64,000 bases of DNA from Macrostomum lignano (Eukaryota), in NCBI GenBank assembly GCA_002269645.1, contig NIVC01002097.1:62001-126000 (forward strand), given 5' to 3'. The notes beneath the pieces are model-generated. The model saw only the letters and a list, made by a program, of their open reading frames with translations, was not told where the DNA came from and made no database searches. A program made the position numbers and the translations under genes. Of this stretch, positions 1 through 9,361 are shown piece after piece. Every line of letters begins with the position of its first letter. Position 1 is the stretch's first letter.

Positions 1-1
1 A

Positions 2-1045
2 ACATATTCATATTTCAGATTGTTCTGTCTTACATCAACATCAGGTTCAACCAACCCAGGTCTGTCAACCTTTCAGATTTATAGACAGACGTTTACAATT
101 CTTGATTTAAATTTAGGAGTAGTTAATCAATCAATTGATATGGGTGGTAATACAATTACTAATATCTCTACTATAAACAATAACAGTTCTGTTGTTACTA
201 AAGGTTATGTTGATACGCGAGTAACCCAAACGGCAGATGGCCGAATGTCTTTTAACGATAAAATAAAATTGGATGGAATACCTGCAATCGATGCCGCTTT
301 GTACGAACCCGTAATTTGCAATTGGACTGGATATCAAAACCCAACCACAGCCGGTGATATTTTTCCAACTGGAAGTTTTGTTGGAGATGCTTCTTATATT
401 GATTATCAAAATGGAGCTAGAATTACTGATGAAGCATCTGGTCGGTCTGGAGCGTTACAATTTAATTTCACCCATTTTCGTAATATCTCCGCCTCCTTCT
501 ATTTCCGAGTTGCGAATTCTACAGGAACAGGAGCTGATGCGGTTTGGTTTTATGCATATTGTCATGAACGACCAACAACCGAATTTGGATCCGGGTTAAC
601 AACCAACGCCGGCTTGATAGTGTTTGCTAGTGAATGGCACGACCGAGTTGGAGTTCTTTGGAGCAATATAAAATCAGACGGTGCAACAGTTCGTAATGAT
701 GTTCTTAATGACGCAGATCAAACTATAACCTATGCTAATATTGATAATGGTGATTGGCATCTTTTTGAAATTAATATTTTAAATCAAAGAATTTGGTATC
801 AAATAAGCACATACAATGTTTCAGCTGAAACATATACGCTAATTGGGCAAAACTTTTTTACATATGATAGTGGCACTTGGGGAGAGTTAGATAAAACGGG
901 AACTCTTATGGGTTTTGGTGCTCGAACCGGAGGGGCGGATGCTGCACATTTTATTCGTGGCGCTGCCGTTTGTGGTAGCACATCAGCCGGCTATGATTTT
1001 GCTGCGACCGCATATTTGGAACGGCCACAAACTCAGATAACCTAA
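2..1045 (+). CDS. Fibre/receptor-binding-like protein, C-terminal part: DMGGNTITNI...VVTKGYVD stalk-type motif followed by an L-type (legume/bacterial) lectin-like domain
   Basis: Frame is open from base 2 (TYSYFRLFCL...), so the gene starts upstream of the window. GADAVWF, DNGDWHLFEI and MGFGARTGG..AAHFIR parallel the GADG.AF, DG.WH.V.I and VGF..STGG...H.I motifs of L-type lectins. The match was made by eye. Confidence 0.65.
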   Translation, partial: TYSYFRLFCLTSTSGSTNPGLSTFQIYRQTFTILDLNLGVVNQSIDMGGNTITNISTINNNSSVVTKGYVDTRVTQTADGRMSFNDKIKLDGIPAIDAALYEPVICNWTGYQNPTTAGDIFPTGSFVGDASYIDYQNGARITDEASGRSGALQFNFTHFRNISASFYFRVANSTGTGADAVWFYAYCHERPTTEFGSGLTTNAGLIVFASEWHDRVGVLWSNIKSDGATVRNDVLNDADQTITYANIDNGDWHLFEINILNQRIWYQISTYNVSAETYTLIGQNFFTYDSGTWGELDKTGTLMGFGARTGGADAAHFIRGAAVCGSTSAGYDFAATAYLERPQTQIT

Positions 1046-1125
1046 ATAACTTAAATAACTTAAATAACCTAAATCAGCTAATGCTGCGACCCTACGGGGC
1101 GATAACCTAAATATTTCTATATAAA

Positions 1126-1729
1126 ATGGCTTTTAGTAGAACTCCATCGATGAGACAAAATAACAATGTTATCATTCCTATTCCTAAACAAGAATCAAAT
1201 ATAAAAACTTTTAAATCTCATACCAAATATTTATTTAGCAATGTGAATGTTCAGGATAATAAGAAACTTCAAGAATTAATTAAATTATTAAAAAACCATA
1301 TTATCCTTCAAGAGTTTTGGAAAATTGGATTTAAATGGGAGAAAAAAGAAAGAATCACTCCGATACAATACCTATTGAGCTCGGGACAAATCCCCAAAGA
1401 GCCCTATTGCAGCCAAGGTCTGAACCGCGCCGGACGCCCCCCTTTCCCGCGCCAGACATCTACCCGTACCGCGCCAGGGCCAGTCCCCAGGATCAGTGAT
1501 TTGGTTCAATTTTCCCATGCCCCGCGCCACGCCACCGCGCGCCGCCGCCACACGACACGCCACCGCGCGCCGCCGCCACGCGCCGCGCCGCTGCCGCGCG
1601 CCGCGCCGCCGCCAGGCCAATCCGCGCCGGACGCCGTCCACGAAAATGGCCATTGGCTGCAATAGGGCCAAAGAGCGTGGGGAATTCATTTTAGTGCTAT
1701 TAAAAATAGACGAAAATGTCGGTATCTGA
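1126..1729 (+). pseudogene. Small Maverick gene (109 aa when reconstructed) disrupted by a MITE
   Basis: Removing 1402-1667 plus one CCAAAGAG copy (274 bp) joins ...SSGQIPKE to RGEFILVLLKIDENVGI* in frame. The stop overlaps the next ATG region, as in a compact viral gene array. Confidence 0.75.
1402..1667. mobile_element. 266-bp GC-rich MITE with 15-bp TIRs and 8-bp TSD (hAT-like by TSD length)
   Basis: CCCTATTGCAGCCAA at 1402-1416 and TTGGCTGCAATAGGG at 1653-1667 are a perfect inverted repeat. CCAAAGAG is duplicated at 1394-1401 and 1668-1675. Confidence 0.9.
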
Positions 1730-2371
1730 AGCAGATAAAAGGGAACGTGACCATTTTAATCAACGTAAGGGTCACATGTTAAGTAATGTTGATCGTATTA
1801 ACTATGATTATGATTTATATGCTAAAAAAGTAAGAAGGATTTCAAACCATATCAGAAATATGGATTTTTTCAATATTGGATTTGGAAGCTTATCAATGTT
1901 ATGTGTAATCGTTTTAGGTATTTTACAATCTGTTCCAACTCTTAATTTATCTCAATTATTTTTAGGTATTTCAATTGGTTCAATATCAGGATTTGAATTA
2001 ATCAGAAATTTATCAATACTTATGGCAATTAAATTATATCTTAAAAAAGAAAGGATAAATATAAATCATTAAGAGATGTTGCTAAACAATATAAAAATCA
2101 GTTATATTTATATGTGCAAAAAATATTGGATGATGGAGAGATAACAATTCATGAATTATCAACGGCTGTGGAATTATACGAAAAATATTTAAAAGATCGA
2201 AATAGAATTTTAGATGTTGAAACTTTTACCGATCTAGAATTAAAAGAATTGAGACTCGATAAGCCTAAAGCTCCACCGATAGAAACATTAGGTATTTACG
2301 AACCCGAAACTATTGGTACTGGGGTACAAAGCCCGAGGTCAGGTAGTGGTGTAGAATTGAACGTTGTTTAA
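1716..2371 (+). CDS. Two-TM/coiled-coil membrane protein (~218 aa), split by a 1-nt frameshift in an A6 run
   Basis: ORFs 1716-2072 and 2114-2371 join if the A run at 2043-2048 has 7 A: ...IKLYLKKRKDKYKSLRDVAKQYKNQLYLYVQKILDDGEITIHEL. There are two hydrophobic segments at about residues 50-105. The LxDGxI motif resembles a recurrent Maverick accessory protein (from memory). Confidence 0.65.
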
Positions 2372-7611: not shown

Positions 7612-8585
7612 CTATTCGAGATCTGCTTTTGGTAACAGTAGTCCATTGCCCATAACGTTTGAATTTAAGAAAATTCCTGAACCTGCTTTTGGTCGCATTT
7701 CGAGATATAATCCGCTTCCATCGTGTTTTTCAATTATGTTAAAATCTTTTCCTAACTTAGTAAAAATCTTCTGAACTGCCGGCCTAAAATTAGCTCCAAT
7801 ATTATCAAAAAATCCTTTAGCTTTCTCACCCGTTTTTTCTAAAGTTTGACCAAATTCCTGTAGTTTATCTGCTACAACTCCACTTCCTTGGGTTGTTCCT
7901 TTTAGTACCAAACCGCTGCCATTTAACAGTAAACCTTTTCCAGCTGCTAACCTAGCTTCTGCATTTTTTTTGCTCTGCTGTTGCTGAACTACTATTAATG
8001 GTGTCAATGAGTTTCTGTTTGAATTGTGCGTCCTGTGTTATTTGCTGTCTTTGAAATTCAGAATCTCGTTTAGCTTTTTCATCCGCAGCTTTTTTATCAT
8101 TCACTGCTTTTGTGATTCCAGCTGCGCCACCTGCTATTCCACCAGCTGCTCCTATTCCTGCAAAAATTATTGGTAACAAAGTTGCAAGTGGAAGTATGCC
8201 TCCTTGTTTAGCTTTTAATTCTGCTAACTGTTTTCGGTTATCATGAATTCTTTTGCCTGCTAAACCGGCTGCTCCGGCTGCTCCGAGGCCTAATAGAATT
8301 GGTAAAATGGGTAGCAATCCGCCGTCCTTTTTAGTGTGAGTCTCCAATAAAAATTTTACATCGGAGTCTGTCAGCCTATAATTTCTACCGCGATTCTTAA
8401 AGGATATTGGCCTTCGTTCTTGTGCATATTTGGCAGCAAGTTTAAACGTATCGATGTTTTTTGTCAAGTTTTTTACCTAAACGATCCAATCTTTTTAACA
8501 TTGTGTGGCTATGTTTATTATCGTCTAGATTTAAAGTATCTACAATTTCTCCTATAAAATATAGCCGTTCATTATCCGTGTCCAT
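7612..8585 (-). CDS. Putative virion core protein precursor (adenovirus pX-like GG-LP segments plus GxG-L repeats), ~323 aa after correcting two +1 indels in A runs
   Basis: An ATG at 8585 (TATAAAAATG) reads MDTDNERLYF...LGKKLDK. Removing one base at the T6 run (8457-8462) and one at the T8 run (7964-7971) gives a single ORF through KDGGLLPILPILLGLGAAG, KQGGILPLATLLPIIFAGIGAAGGIAGGAAGITKAVND and AAGKGLLLNGSGLVL...GSGLYL...GSGIFL...GNGLLL. The length fits: 974-2=972 nt. Confidence 0.7.
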
Positions 8586-8595
8586 TTTTATATTA

Positions 8596-8994
8596 TTAAA
8601 TTTTTTTTAATCCTTTTCCGCCTTTAATTGTGGTTAACATTTTATTAAAATCCTGAATATCTTTATTACTTATTGGCGTGCTTTTCGTGGGGGTTTCTGT
8701 TGGTTGTGCGGCTTGTGCCAGCTTTAAATCTTTTATTGCATTTATTTGTGAGAGGGTGTCGTTAAATTCTCTCAATTTCTTTAGTTCTTCTGCTGCTCTA
8801 GCTGCTTCAATTCCTCCTTTTACAGCATTTGTTACAGAACCTGCTGCGGAGCCTGCTTGGCCTATAAGACCCATATTGTCTTTAACAAAATTTGCTGCTG
8901 TTCCAACCACATCAAAAAGCCCCTCACCTCGGTATTCAACTGGGTCTCCTACCTGCAATTCATTCAGATTTTGCATATTAGTAACATGTGTCAT
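8596..8994 (-). CDS. Putative core/membrane-lytic precursor (pVI-like), 132 aa
   Basis: RGEG followed by an amphipathic LFDVVGTAANFVKDNMGLI segment and an Ala/Gly-rich helix. Ends GGKGLKKI. ATG in AAAAAATG context. Confidence 0.7.
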   Translation of the reverse strand: MTHVTNMQNLNELQVGDPVEYRGEGLFDVVGTAANFVKDNMGLIGQAGSAAGSVTNAVKGGIEAARAAEELKKLREFNDTLSQINAIKDLKLAQAAQPTETPTKSTPISNKDIQDFNKMLTTIKGGKGLKKI

Positions 8995-9065
8995 TTTTTG
9001 TTCTATTTTTAGTAACAGAAAAAGACCCTTCGCGCCTGCGGCGCGTGCGAGGGGTTATAGAATGT

Positions 9066-9361
9066 AGTAGTAGGCAAAACGACGAGTACAGATCAGACCC
9101 TATTTATAATGGCCGTTTGTAAGGTCTTAAGAGGGGGGACACGAGGGGGATGATAAGAAGTGTTGGGGATGATTTTTATTGATTTTTGTTATTAGGGGGT
9201 GTTTAGATGTGTTTTTGTGTTGGAGGGTGTTTAGATGTGTTTTTGTGTTGGAGGGTGTTTAGATGTGTTTTTTTAATTTCCCCTCGTGTCCCCCCTCTAG
9301 ACCCTTAAAACGGTTGTTTAAAAAGTGCTGACCGGCTAGACTCGTCGTTTTGCCTACTACT
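9066..9361. repeat. Maverick terminal region: nested imperfect inverted repeat with a 28-bp x ~2.7 tandem core
   Basis: AGTAGTAGGCAAAACGACGAGT (9066-9087) is the exact reverse complement of 9340-9361. AGAGGGGGGACACGAGGGG (9130-9148) pairs with 9280-9298. The unit GGGTGTTTAGATGTGTTTTTGTGTTGGA starts at 9197, 9225 and 9253. Confidence 0.88.

What the first reader, a model, noticed from the sequence alone, without database searches (positions are those of the whole stretch)
1..9361. Near-intact endogenous Maverick/adintovirus-like virus arm in a probable flatworm genome, with virion-entry genes
Seen: ten tightly packed AT-rich ORFs, a 1309-aa PolB with no stop or frameshift, and a sharp terminus. 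Known: Mavericks encode capsids and some are thought to be viruses. Inference: an intact polymerase together with fibre-like, pX-like and pVI-like genes points to a recent integration of a virion-forming element. The layout puts core-protein genes between the terminus and PolB, co-directional with it. Most accessory ORFs have no family I can name.
Basis: partly seen in the sequence, partly recalled or inferred. Interest (0 to 1): 0.75.

Follow-up and report, generated by a model that had tools for sequence, protein, structure and literature searches.

The report
Partly decayed Maverick with fold-back end
This is one end of a known kind of virus-like jumping element in an animal genome; its DNA-copying gene is whole but several structural genes are broken, and its only unusual trait is a 300-base tip that carries the end signal twice and can fold back on itself.

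Summary
The stretch 1-9361 is the right arm of a Maverick/Polinton (Beta-adintovirus-like). Confirmed: stop-free 1309-aa polymerase with all motifs, AGTAGT end at 9361 inserted in a host repeat, a pX-like segment, and a fibre-like gene with an L-type lectin head (Z 21). Not confirmed: 'near-intact' and 'recent'. Three of nine genes are broken as assembled: the pX core gene (three breaks), a membrane-protein gene (one break) and an ORF holding a 266-bp MITE. The copy differs 3-5% from dominant sister contigs. pX-like, membrane-active and fibre genes are already described in adintoviruses; 'pVI-like' rests on motifs only; 'flatworm' is untested; capsid, protease, integrase and the left end lie outside the window. 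Terminal palindromes are in print for protist virophages/PLVs, mostly without pPolB, and this scan noted Maverick end palindromes before in other genomes. Verdict: ordinary family member, one testable oddity.

The parts
2..1045 (+). Fibre-like gene, 5' part outside the window: tail of a probable F5/8-type-C (discoidin) domain, a tail-fibre repeat (about residues 40-75), and an L-type (legume-like) lectin head (residues about 100-330)
   Evidence: Model pLDDT 76, pTM 0.70; best PDB matches ERGIC-53 CRD Z 21.4, rmsd 3.1, 212 aligned, VIP36 Z 19.8, peanut lectin Z 18.2; PHROG tail fibre E 2e-4; two short segments match a Polinton F5/8C protein in L086
1126..1729 (+). Small basic ORF of unknown family, interrupted by the MITE
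   Evidence: a joint 1393>1668 without the insert in 2 contigs of run X1 (table 5)
1402..1667 (.). 266-bp GC-rich MITE, 15-bp terminal inverted repeats, 8-bp target duplication (1394-1401 / 1668-1675)
1716..2371 (+). Membrane-protein gene (hydrophobic segments then helical tail) of a family seen in other Polintons; broken into two frames near 2045-2072
   Evidence: second frame has no Met, first has max hydropathy 2.15; second frame matches residues 122-177 of the 226-aa L003 ORF, E 5e-4 among 133 frames, first frame weakly residues 35-104, E 1.8
2368..2910 (-). 180-aa ORF with N-terminal CxxC/CxxC pair; no family
2937..3269 (+). 110-aa ORF; lead only: small viral protein class near phi29-type single-strand binding proteins
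   Evidence: Atlas first hits 0.93-0.94 to unnamed viral clusters; nearest named cluster 0.89 with PF17427 on 22% of members; recognition 2126 is under the 2300 mark
3285..3626 (+). 113-aa helical ORF; no family
3600..7529 (-). Protein-primed family B polymerase, 1309 aa: terminal-protein region (by position), vOTU Cys214/His320, Exo I-III, endonuclease-VII-like insert, Pol A-C, about 90-aa C-terminal extension
   Evidence: domain order as in PMC11161782 (passages)
7570..8585 (-). Core-protein gene with two pX-like hydrophobic segments, an amphipathic helix and repeated G-x-G/hydrophobic motifs; broken near 8460, 7965 and 7600
   Evidence: PF05829 E 5e-5; motif counts 3 vs 0.75 and 6 vs 1.26 in shuffles, p 0.04 and 0.001; sister contigs differ by small indels at all three places in 4 of 4 runs (table 4)
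8596..8994 (-). 132-aa ORF with G-x-G motifs at both ends; candidate protease-processed virion protein
   Evidence: 3 motifs vs 0.65 expected, p 0.02; weak likeness to a Polinton family in L086 (profile E 0.085; pairwise E 0.013); no homolog among 22 candidates
9005..9361 (.). Probable terminal inverted repeat (inner edge inferred)
   Evidence: 3 contigs of run X11 carry other letters left of 9005 (table 7); a hint only
9066..9148 (+). Inner arm of the fold-back: exact inverted copy of the 22-nt terminus, diverged middle, 19-nt G-rich block
9184..9272 (+). Three 28-nt tandem repeats in the loop of the fold-back
9280..9361 (-). Outer arm, ending in the (AGT)2 Maverick end motif
   Evidence: motif as in PMC8097293 section 7
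9362..11000 (.). High-copy host repeat into which the element is inserted; AACGCG is the candidate target duplication
   Evidence: tables 2 and 7; no Rfam match in 8900-12000

Best explanation
A genomic copy of a multi-copy Beta-adintovirus-type Maverick family that has begun to decay. The family replicates by protein priming: the polymerase carries its own terminal protein, released by the vOTU domain, and starts at the AGTAGT end (inferred from known Polintons; motifs shown). It very probably makes virions (inferred): the pX-bearing core protein and the 132-aa ORF would be cut by an adenain-like protease at G-x-G sites into membrane-active peptides, and the fibre would bind host glycans through its lectin head (fold shown, binding inferred). 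This copy, as assembled, could not supply the core or membrane protein. The end is a built-in local panhandle: when a strand is displaced, its last 296 nt fold so that the terminus pairs with an inner inverted copy. That gives a duplex origin without pairing the far end and lets the inner arm re-template the tip, which keeps the two copies identical within a subfamily (structure and joint change shown; use inferred, about 45% for this mechanism).
For: Polymerase motifs and homologs; end motif and real junction (table 7); pX hit and cleavage-like motifs; pX, F5/8C, ATPase, integrase and double-jelly-roll genes on relatives' contigs L082 and L086; lectin fold. Decay: Met-less frames, indels in sister contigs at three breaks and a MITE-less joint, 67 differences in 2024 bases and 212 in 4595. 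Fold-back: -58.5 kcal/mol, z -9.7, 0 of 100 shuffles. table 7 shows a variant terminal core, differing at 6 of 22 positions, after the inner flank (9061; X6, X2) and, reverse-complemented over 20 of 20 letters, after the outer middle (9329; X6, part in X1); its last three letters also precede the inner middle (9107; X2). Compared by eye on the printed table.
Against: No capsid, protease, ATPase, integrase, left end or target duplication seen for this copy (no genome held). All four frame breaks lie in single-base runs, so they could be long-read errors; 0 of 17 A/T runs in PolB against 3 of 27 outside is not decisive either way (p 0.27). 10 of 19 best-supported differences in PolB are at third codon positions (p 0.065), so part of the divergence arose in an active lineage and overstates insertion age. 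The variant arms come from separate short contigs, not one molecule. The middle 42 nt of the arms are diverged, which fits two protein-binding blocks as well as pairing. Only 9 of 99 relative loci show a fold-back upstream of PolB, none starting with AGTAGT.
Confidence: 0.75

Rival explanations
1. One reading: a recently inserted, essentially intact provirus; the frame breaks are assembly errors in single-base runs and only a dispensable ORF is hit by the MITE.
For: All four breaks are in homopolymer runs; most sister-contig depth differs from the window at 8458-8462 and, in X6 and X11, at 7600 (table 4); PolB and five other ORFs are open; third-position bias of PolB differences.
Against: The MITE with its target duplication cannot be a read error; 3-5% distance from dominant contigs; PolB crosses 17 A/T runs of six or more without a break; part of the depth in X1, X2 and X6 does not show the sister indel (table 4).
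Confidence: 0.17
2. A capsid-less self-synthesising transposon in which the pX-like and fibre-like genes are relics.
For: No capsid gene seen in the window; core and membrane genes are the broken ones.
Against: Sister contigs differ from this copy at the three core-gene breaks; the fibre ORF is open over 347 aa and folds well; close relatives carry capsid genes (L002 weak Capsid_N E 0.002; L082, L086 PF21738).
Confidence: 0.06
3. For the end only: the 3' terminus folds back and primes synthesis as a hairpin (parvovirus-like), later nicked, perhaps by the polymerase's endonuclease-VII-like domain.
For: The fold leaves a paired 3' end at 9361 with template beyond 9066; this model was proposed for virophage/PLV palindromes (10.64898/2026.07.28.741278 section 7); EndoVII-like motif intact.
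Against: Terminal-protein region and vOTU dyad are kept, as is the AGTAGT motif; the EndoVII-like domain is on about 80 of 120 listed homologs (my count) while fold-backs are rare; the preprint links palindromes to non-pPolB elements.
Confidence: 0.2
4. For the end only: the inner arm is a second binding site for the terminal protein, polymerase or integrase, kept by selection on sequence in duplex DNA, without folding.
For: Two perfect blocks (22 and 19 nt) with a diverged spacer of near-equal length.
Against: All 6 subfamily differences are mirrored exactly in both copies (table 7), which copying explains more simply than independent selection.
Confidence: 0.25
5. For the end only: an artefact, or a separate 296-bp mini-element that inserted at the tip.
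For: The unit has Maverick ends on both sides, and gene-less elements with Maverick ends were noted elsewhere in this scan (e1-7884660, unchecked).
Against: The 6 bases left of 9066 do not match the 6 right of 9361; arms differ in the middle, unlike an assembler's mirror; a second subfamily has its own inner arm after the same flank.
Confidence: 0.1

Closest known systems
Beta adintoviruses / Mavericks with Beta virion module (Starrett et al. 2021, PMC8502044; parts 1-3 of 6 read, supplement searched)
   Same: OTU-bearing polymerase without a PF03175 hit; pX-like segment in a membrane-active core protein (their GasderminX/PLA2X); short amphipathic ORF (their Cupiennin class, likeness inferred); a 'Fiber' label occurs once in their supplementary maps.
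   Different: No gasdermin or PLA2 domain detected here; core genes lie between the end and PolB; fibre has an L-type lectin head ('lectin' 0 occurrences in the supplement as stored, which was cut; 'Lectin' appears in their Fig. 5 legend for galactose-binding domains); no fold-back end described in the parts read.
Vertebrate Mavericks (Barreat and Katzourakis 2021, PMC8097293; passages and section 7 read)
   Same: (AGT)2 end motif, TIR size range 46-1447 bp, most copies (96%) degraded.
   Different: 'hairpin' and 'palindrom' occur 0 times in that paper; their 'intact' class needs all core ORFs, TIRs and a 6-bp TSD, which this copy cannot be shown to meet.
Virophages and PLVs of Halocafeteria seosinensis with terminal palindromes (bioRxiv 10.64898/2026.07.28.741278; passages and section 7 read)
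   Same: Palindromes within the TIR, next to the target duplication; hairpin priming proposed.
   Different: Those are short (52 nt in subtype 5; screen allowed a gap of 10) and go mainly with non-pPolB replicases in a protist; this one spans 296 nt with a 131-nt repeat loop, duplicates the AGTAGT origin and sits beside an intact pPolB in an animal.
pPolB2-type Polinton polymerases with an HNH insert (Jeong et al., bioRxiv 10.1101/2023.08.22.554363; passages read) and TP-vOTU-Exo-Palm architecture (Krupovic et al. 2024, PMC11161782; passages read)
   Same: Endonuclease insert and domain order, active-site Cys/His.
   Different: No reference pPolB1/pPolB2 sequences were in my tree, so class is inferred; the nearest named relative is a Mytilus edulis protein (P0070, 51% over 59% of the query region).
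Adenovirus pX and pVI (roles recalled, not from a call)
   Same: pX-like hydrophobic segments after GG; G-x-G motifs and an amphipathic helix.
   Different: No Pfam match to a pVI family at E up to 1.

Membership tests
Maverick/Polinton | Protein-primed family B polymerase with Exo and Pol motifs | tested here: met
Maverick/Polinton | (AGT)2 or related 6-bp end motif at a real host junction | tested here: met
   table 7
Maverick/Polinton | Paired terminal inverted repeats | not testable with these tools
   left end outside the window, no genome held; hint of a TIR edge at 9005
Maverick/Polinton | 6-bp target site duplication | not testable with these tools
   needs the left junction
Maverick/Polinton | rve integrase, A32 ATPase, adenain protease, major and minor capsid | not testable with these tools
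   not in 1-9361; present on relatives' contigs
'Intact' Maverick (PMC8097293 criterion) | Conserved ORFs free of frameshifts and insertions | tested here: not met
   as assembled: four breaks and a MITE; read errors not excluded for the four breaks
Beta adintovirus | OTU domain plus polymerase unlike PF03175 | tested here: met
   Cys214/His320; no PF03175 hit at E up to 1; no reference Alpha/Beta rows in the tree
Beta adintovirus | GasderminX: gasdermin-like domain with pX-like segment | tested here: inconclusive
   pX hit E 5e-5; no gasdermin hit on the separate frames
Beta adintovirus | Animal host | tested here: met
   7tm_1 exon at 46702-47070, E 9e-10 and a neuropeptide-precursor-like ORF; phylum not determined
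Adenovirus pVI-like lytic protein | Sequence or profile match to pVI | tested here: inconclusive
   no Pfam match; motifs and hydrophobic moment 0.57, above all PolB windows; but four other ORFs also reach the top 0.2% in that test
L-type lectin fold | ConA-like beta-sandwich matching L-type lectins | tested here: met
   Z 21.4, rmsd 3.1, 212 aligned; sugar binding not tested
H. seosinensis-type terminal palindrome elements | Short-loop palindrome with a non-pPolB replicase | tested here: not met
   131-nt loop, intact pPolB; paper section

The most novel reading that the evidence does not exclude
An animal Maverick lineage in which each end carries its protein-priming origin twice, in inverted order, so that a displaced strand rebuilds a duplex origin and repairs its own tip by local fold-back instead of end-to-end pairing. 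The 296-bp unit might also be inverted or released by the integrase as a minimal Maverick. Such a lineage would bridge protein-primed and hairpin-primed replication and give a short, assayable substrate for how Mavericks start replication, in a virion-forming element with a glycan-binding fibre.
Probability: 0.25. Interest if true: 0.65.

Novelty: new member of a known kind. Interest (0 to 1): 0.36.

Why it matters
As 'an intact virion-forming Maverick' it matters little: such elements and these gene types are described, and this copy is damaged. How Mavericks leave the chromosome and start copying has not been shown experimentally (the preprint still gives two models). An end with two co-varying origin copies beside an intact terminal-protein polymerase is a small, direct test case. 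The lectin-tipped fibre is a concrete candidate for host-cell attachment.

Tried and rejected
Own genome: none held; five related loci are not in held records, so their far ends were not seen. Single-protein scan of viral contigs: 28 pattern matches, none confirmed. Single-sequence fold of ORF1 failed, pLDDT 31. No PDB sequence match for PolB. No homolog for the 132-aa ORF or for the pX frame in phage records. Host phylum: no homolog for a receptor exon among 253 candidates; paper search 'FVRLamide'+'flatworm'+'neuropeptide' gave 0. Expression: no RNA holder listed on record; run X11 is RNA only by guess, so its cover is not used. Depth sums are not copy numbers. The Arg-rich reading of 1372-1700 is the MITE, not a core protein. 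A programmed frameshift at 7965 has no folding support (z 0.22 on the + strand of 7870-8010; one strand only). A degenerate pattern for the terminal core found 0 matches in viral contigs. Rfam 8900-12000: 0. IQ-TREE run did not finish; FastTree used. Literature: 'polinton+terminal inverted repeat+hairpin+palindrom' 11 papers; 'maverick/polinton/inverted repeat/stem-loop/subterminal', 4 of 5 terms, 13 papers; listings showed no account of a doubled origin in an animal pPolB Maverick, but only two of these were opened. A guessed flatworm genus with 'polinton' or 'Maverick' gave 1 unrelated paper each. Subscription papers, including Kapitonov and Jurka 2006 and Pritham 2007, and bioRxiv supplements were not seen and may describe such ends.
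Full report
Observation. The element occupies 1-9361 and runs off the left edge of the window. It is 31.7% GC without the MITE against 43.2% in the flank, and merged gene intervals cover 98% of 1-9004. The polymerase ORF is 3600-7529 on the minus strand, 1309 aa without a stop. The end at 9361 reads AGTAGT inward, the commonest Maverick end motif (PMC8097293 section 7). Contigs of four public runs of one organism, from four studies, were laid on 1-11000 (4 of the 24 runs listed). 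In all four, contigs of the flanking high-copy repeat carry other letters left of 9362, so the junction is a true insertion edge. No genome is held, so the left end, target duplication, capsid, protease, ATPase and integrase could not be examined.

Polymerase. vOTU Cys and His, Exo I-III, an endonuclease-VII-like insert and Pol A-C motifs are all present (PF02945 E 9e-7; T4 endonuclease VII E 0.002 with the profile). The order fits the TP-vOTU-Exo-Palm layout of PMC11161782 (passages); the terminal-protein region is assigned by position only. The search gave 1343 homologs among 6434 candidates, best 50-52% identical. In a FastTree of 54 rows the window's protein is the deepest branch of a 27-row clade with support 100 that includes a Mytilus edulis protein (no reference Alpha or Beta rows, 37 of the 120 listed proteins and 16 of the 99 loci used). 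Lack of a PF03175 hit with an OTU domain is the Beta pattern of PMC8502044. Related contigs carry ATPase, integrase, capsid, pX and F5/8C genes (30 locus ORFs scanned, chosen by me).

The other genes. ORF1 has 47 homologs at E up to 0.001. With 27 sequences it folds at pLDDT 76, and above 80 over most of residues 100-340, and matches L-type lectins: ERGIC-53 Z 21.4, VIP36 19.8, peanut lectin 18.2; viral matches are tail and tropism proteins. Residues 1-81 are unresolved in the model; residues 41-72 and 2-27 match the fibre repeat and the end of the F5/8C domain of a Polinton protein in L086. So 'fibre-like' holds and gains a glycan-binding-type head. The pX hit is real but under the curated cut-off (23.5 against 25 bits). 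G-x-G/hydrophobic motifs are enriched in the core frames and the 132-aa ORF (13 frames tested, no correction; one unrelated frame, 2045-2371, also reached p 0.01); that adenain cuts such sites is recalled. 'pVI-like' has no profile support, and the amphipathicity test is not specific. PMC8502044 already describes pX-bearing and membrane-active proteins in adintoviruses, so these gene types are not new. ORFs 2368-2910, 3285-3626 and 1126 stay unassigned; 2937-3269 has a weak single-strand-binding lead.

Not near-intact. The core gene lies in overlapping frames 8442-8585, 7952-8476 and 7612-8037 plus a short tail; the pX frame has no Met. Sister contigs differ by small indels near 8460, 7965 and 7600 in 4 of 4 runs (table 4; 12 of 37 rows shown). 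The membrane-protein gene is split near 2045-2072 (no row for it among those shown). The ORF at 1126 holds a 266-bp MITE with an 8-bp duplication, and two contigs in X1 join across it (table 5). Listed sister contigs differ by 67 of 2024 bases (seven high-depth X6 contigs) and 212 of 4595 (eight X11 contigs). High-depth contigs near 430-560 beside ones near 12-35 in X6 point to a family of many copies, though depth is not a copy number. Against my reading: the four breaks are all in single-base runs and may be read errors (p 0.27 for the PolB contrast), and 10 of 19 PolB differences are third-position (p 0.065), so some divergence predates insertion. With four random breaks PolB would stay open 9.5% of the time, so its intactness is weak evidence of recency.

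The end. The terminal 22 nt recur exactly, inverted, at 9066-9087; a second perfect 19-nt block pairs 9130-9148 with 9280-9298; the 42 nt between them are diverged; the loop holds three 28-nt repeats. The strand folds at -58.5 kcal/mol, z -9.7. No 6-bp duplication flanks the unit. Loose ends show a second subfamily whose terminal core differs at 6 of 22 positions; it follows the inner flank (X6, 1 contig; X2, 4 contigs, mixed) and appears reverse-complemented after the outer middle (X6, 3 contigs; X1, 4 contigs, partial), and its last letters precede the inner middle (X2, 3 contigs). I compared these by eye. Both copies therefore change together, though no single contig shows both. Among 99 related loci (64 with 500 bp or more upstream), fold-backs of 55-400 bp occur upstream of PolB in 9, 8 of them 0.6-1.3 kb from the match, downstream in 5 and inside PolB in 0. 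L060 (249 bp with a repeat loop, at a contig end) and L053 (271 bp) resemble this one in size; some others are AT-rich or lie at contig ends where assemblers stop, and none begins with AGTAGT.

How it works. Shown: domain content, end motif, junction, fold-back, joint change of arms, breaks. Inferred: protein-primed replication, integrase-mediated insertion, virion formation with protease-processed core peptides and a lectin fibre. For the end I favour a local panhandle that restores a duplex origin and re-templates the tip (about 45%), over a doubled protein-binding site (25%), hairpin priming (20%) and accident or nested mini-element (10%).

Known or new. It is a new member of a known family. 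Terminal palindromes are reported for protist virophages and PLVs, mainly without pPolB (10.64898/2026.07.28.741278). In three Maverick papers searched or read in part I found no doubled origin ('hairpin' and 'palindrom' 0 in PMC8097293, and in 10.1101/2023.08.22.554363; PMC6431247 passages). Earlier notes of this scan report end palindromes in other Mavericks (unchecked), which suggests that the trait is recurrent and not unique. Papers seen: PMC8502044 parts 1-3 of 6 and a search of its supplement (cut when stored); PMC8097293 passages and section 7; PMC11161782, 10.1101/2023.08.22.554363 and PMC6431247 passages; 10.64898/2026.07.28.741278 passages and section 7; all others as listings only. 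Kapitonov and Jurka's model is known to me from the legend and from recall.

Verdict. Observation partly confirmed, interpretation partly supported, interest 0.36. The most novel reading, an origin doubled for local fold-back replication, has about 25% and would deserve about 0.65.

Noticed in passing
window 56891-57361 (+): Neuropeptide-precursor-like ORF: signal-peptide-like start and nine KR-flanked PSFVRL-G / PNFVRL-G repeats; no Pfam hit. FxRL/FxRI-amide likeness is recalled.
   Followed up: partly
window 36010-36336 and 46702-47070 (+): Two probable exons of a rhodopsin-family receptor about 10 kb apart; the second hits 7tm_1, E 9e-10.
   Followed up: partly
window 59592-64000 (-): Non-LTR retrotransposon ORF2 with reverse transcriptase and RNase H, in two overlapping frames.
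   Followed up: partly
window 1402-1667: GC-rich MITE with 15-bp ends and 8-bp duplication; a joint 1419>1645 in X1 suggests internally deleted relatives (table 5c). Superfamily not identified; only one copy in the window.
   Followed up: partly
window 3600-3870 (-): PolB runs about 90 residues past the end matched by homologs (to residue about 1216-1227), with a Cys/Tyr/acidic patch; a high-depth sister contig covers it without gaps (record 25).
   Followed up: partly
window 1030-1113: Short 9-nt tandem repeats between ORF1 and ORF2; sister contigs vary in length here (table 5).
   Followed up: no
L060:3-251 and L053:460-730: 250-270-bp fold-backs about 0.9-1.1 kb upstream of the PolB match in distant Polintons; L060 has a tandem-repeat loop like the window's.
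   Followed up: partly
P0026, P0038: Two close polymerase relatives of about 1500 aa carry Pfam PF14890 and PF14528 (intein and LAGLIDADG, names recalled); in P0026 the insert lies at the Pol C motif.
   Followed up: no
one search list: PF02945 (endonuclease VII) is on about 80 of 120 listed homologs, including coral and mussel proteins, wider than the nematode-oomycete range given for the HNH insert in 10.1101/2023.08.22.554363 (passages); whether it is the same insert was not tested.
   Followed up: no
L002:3213-4292 and 7005-7631: A related Polinton contig has two ORFs with A32 ATPase matches.
   Followed up: no
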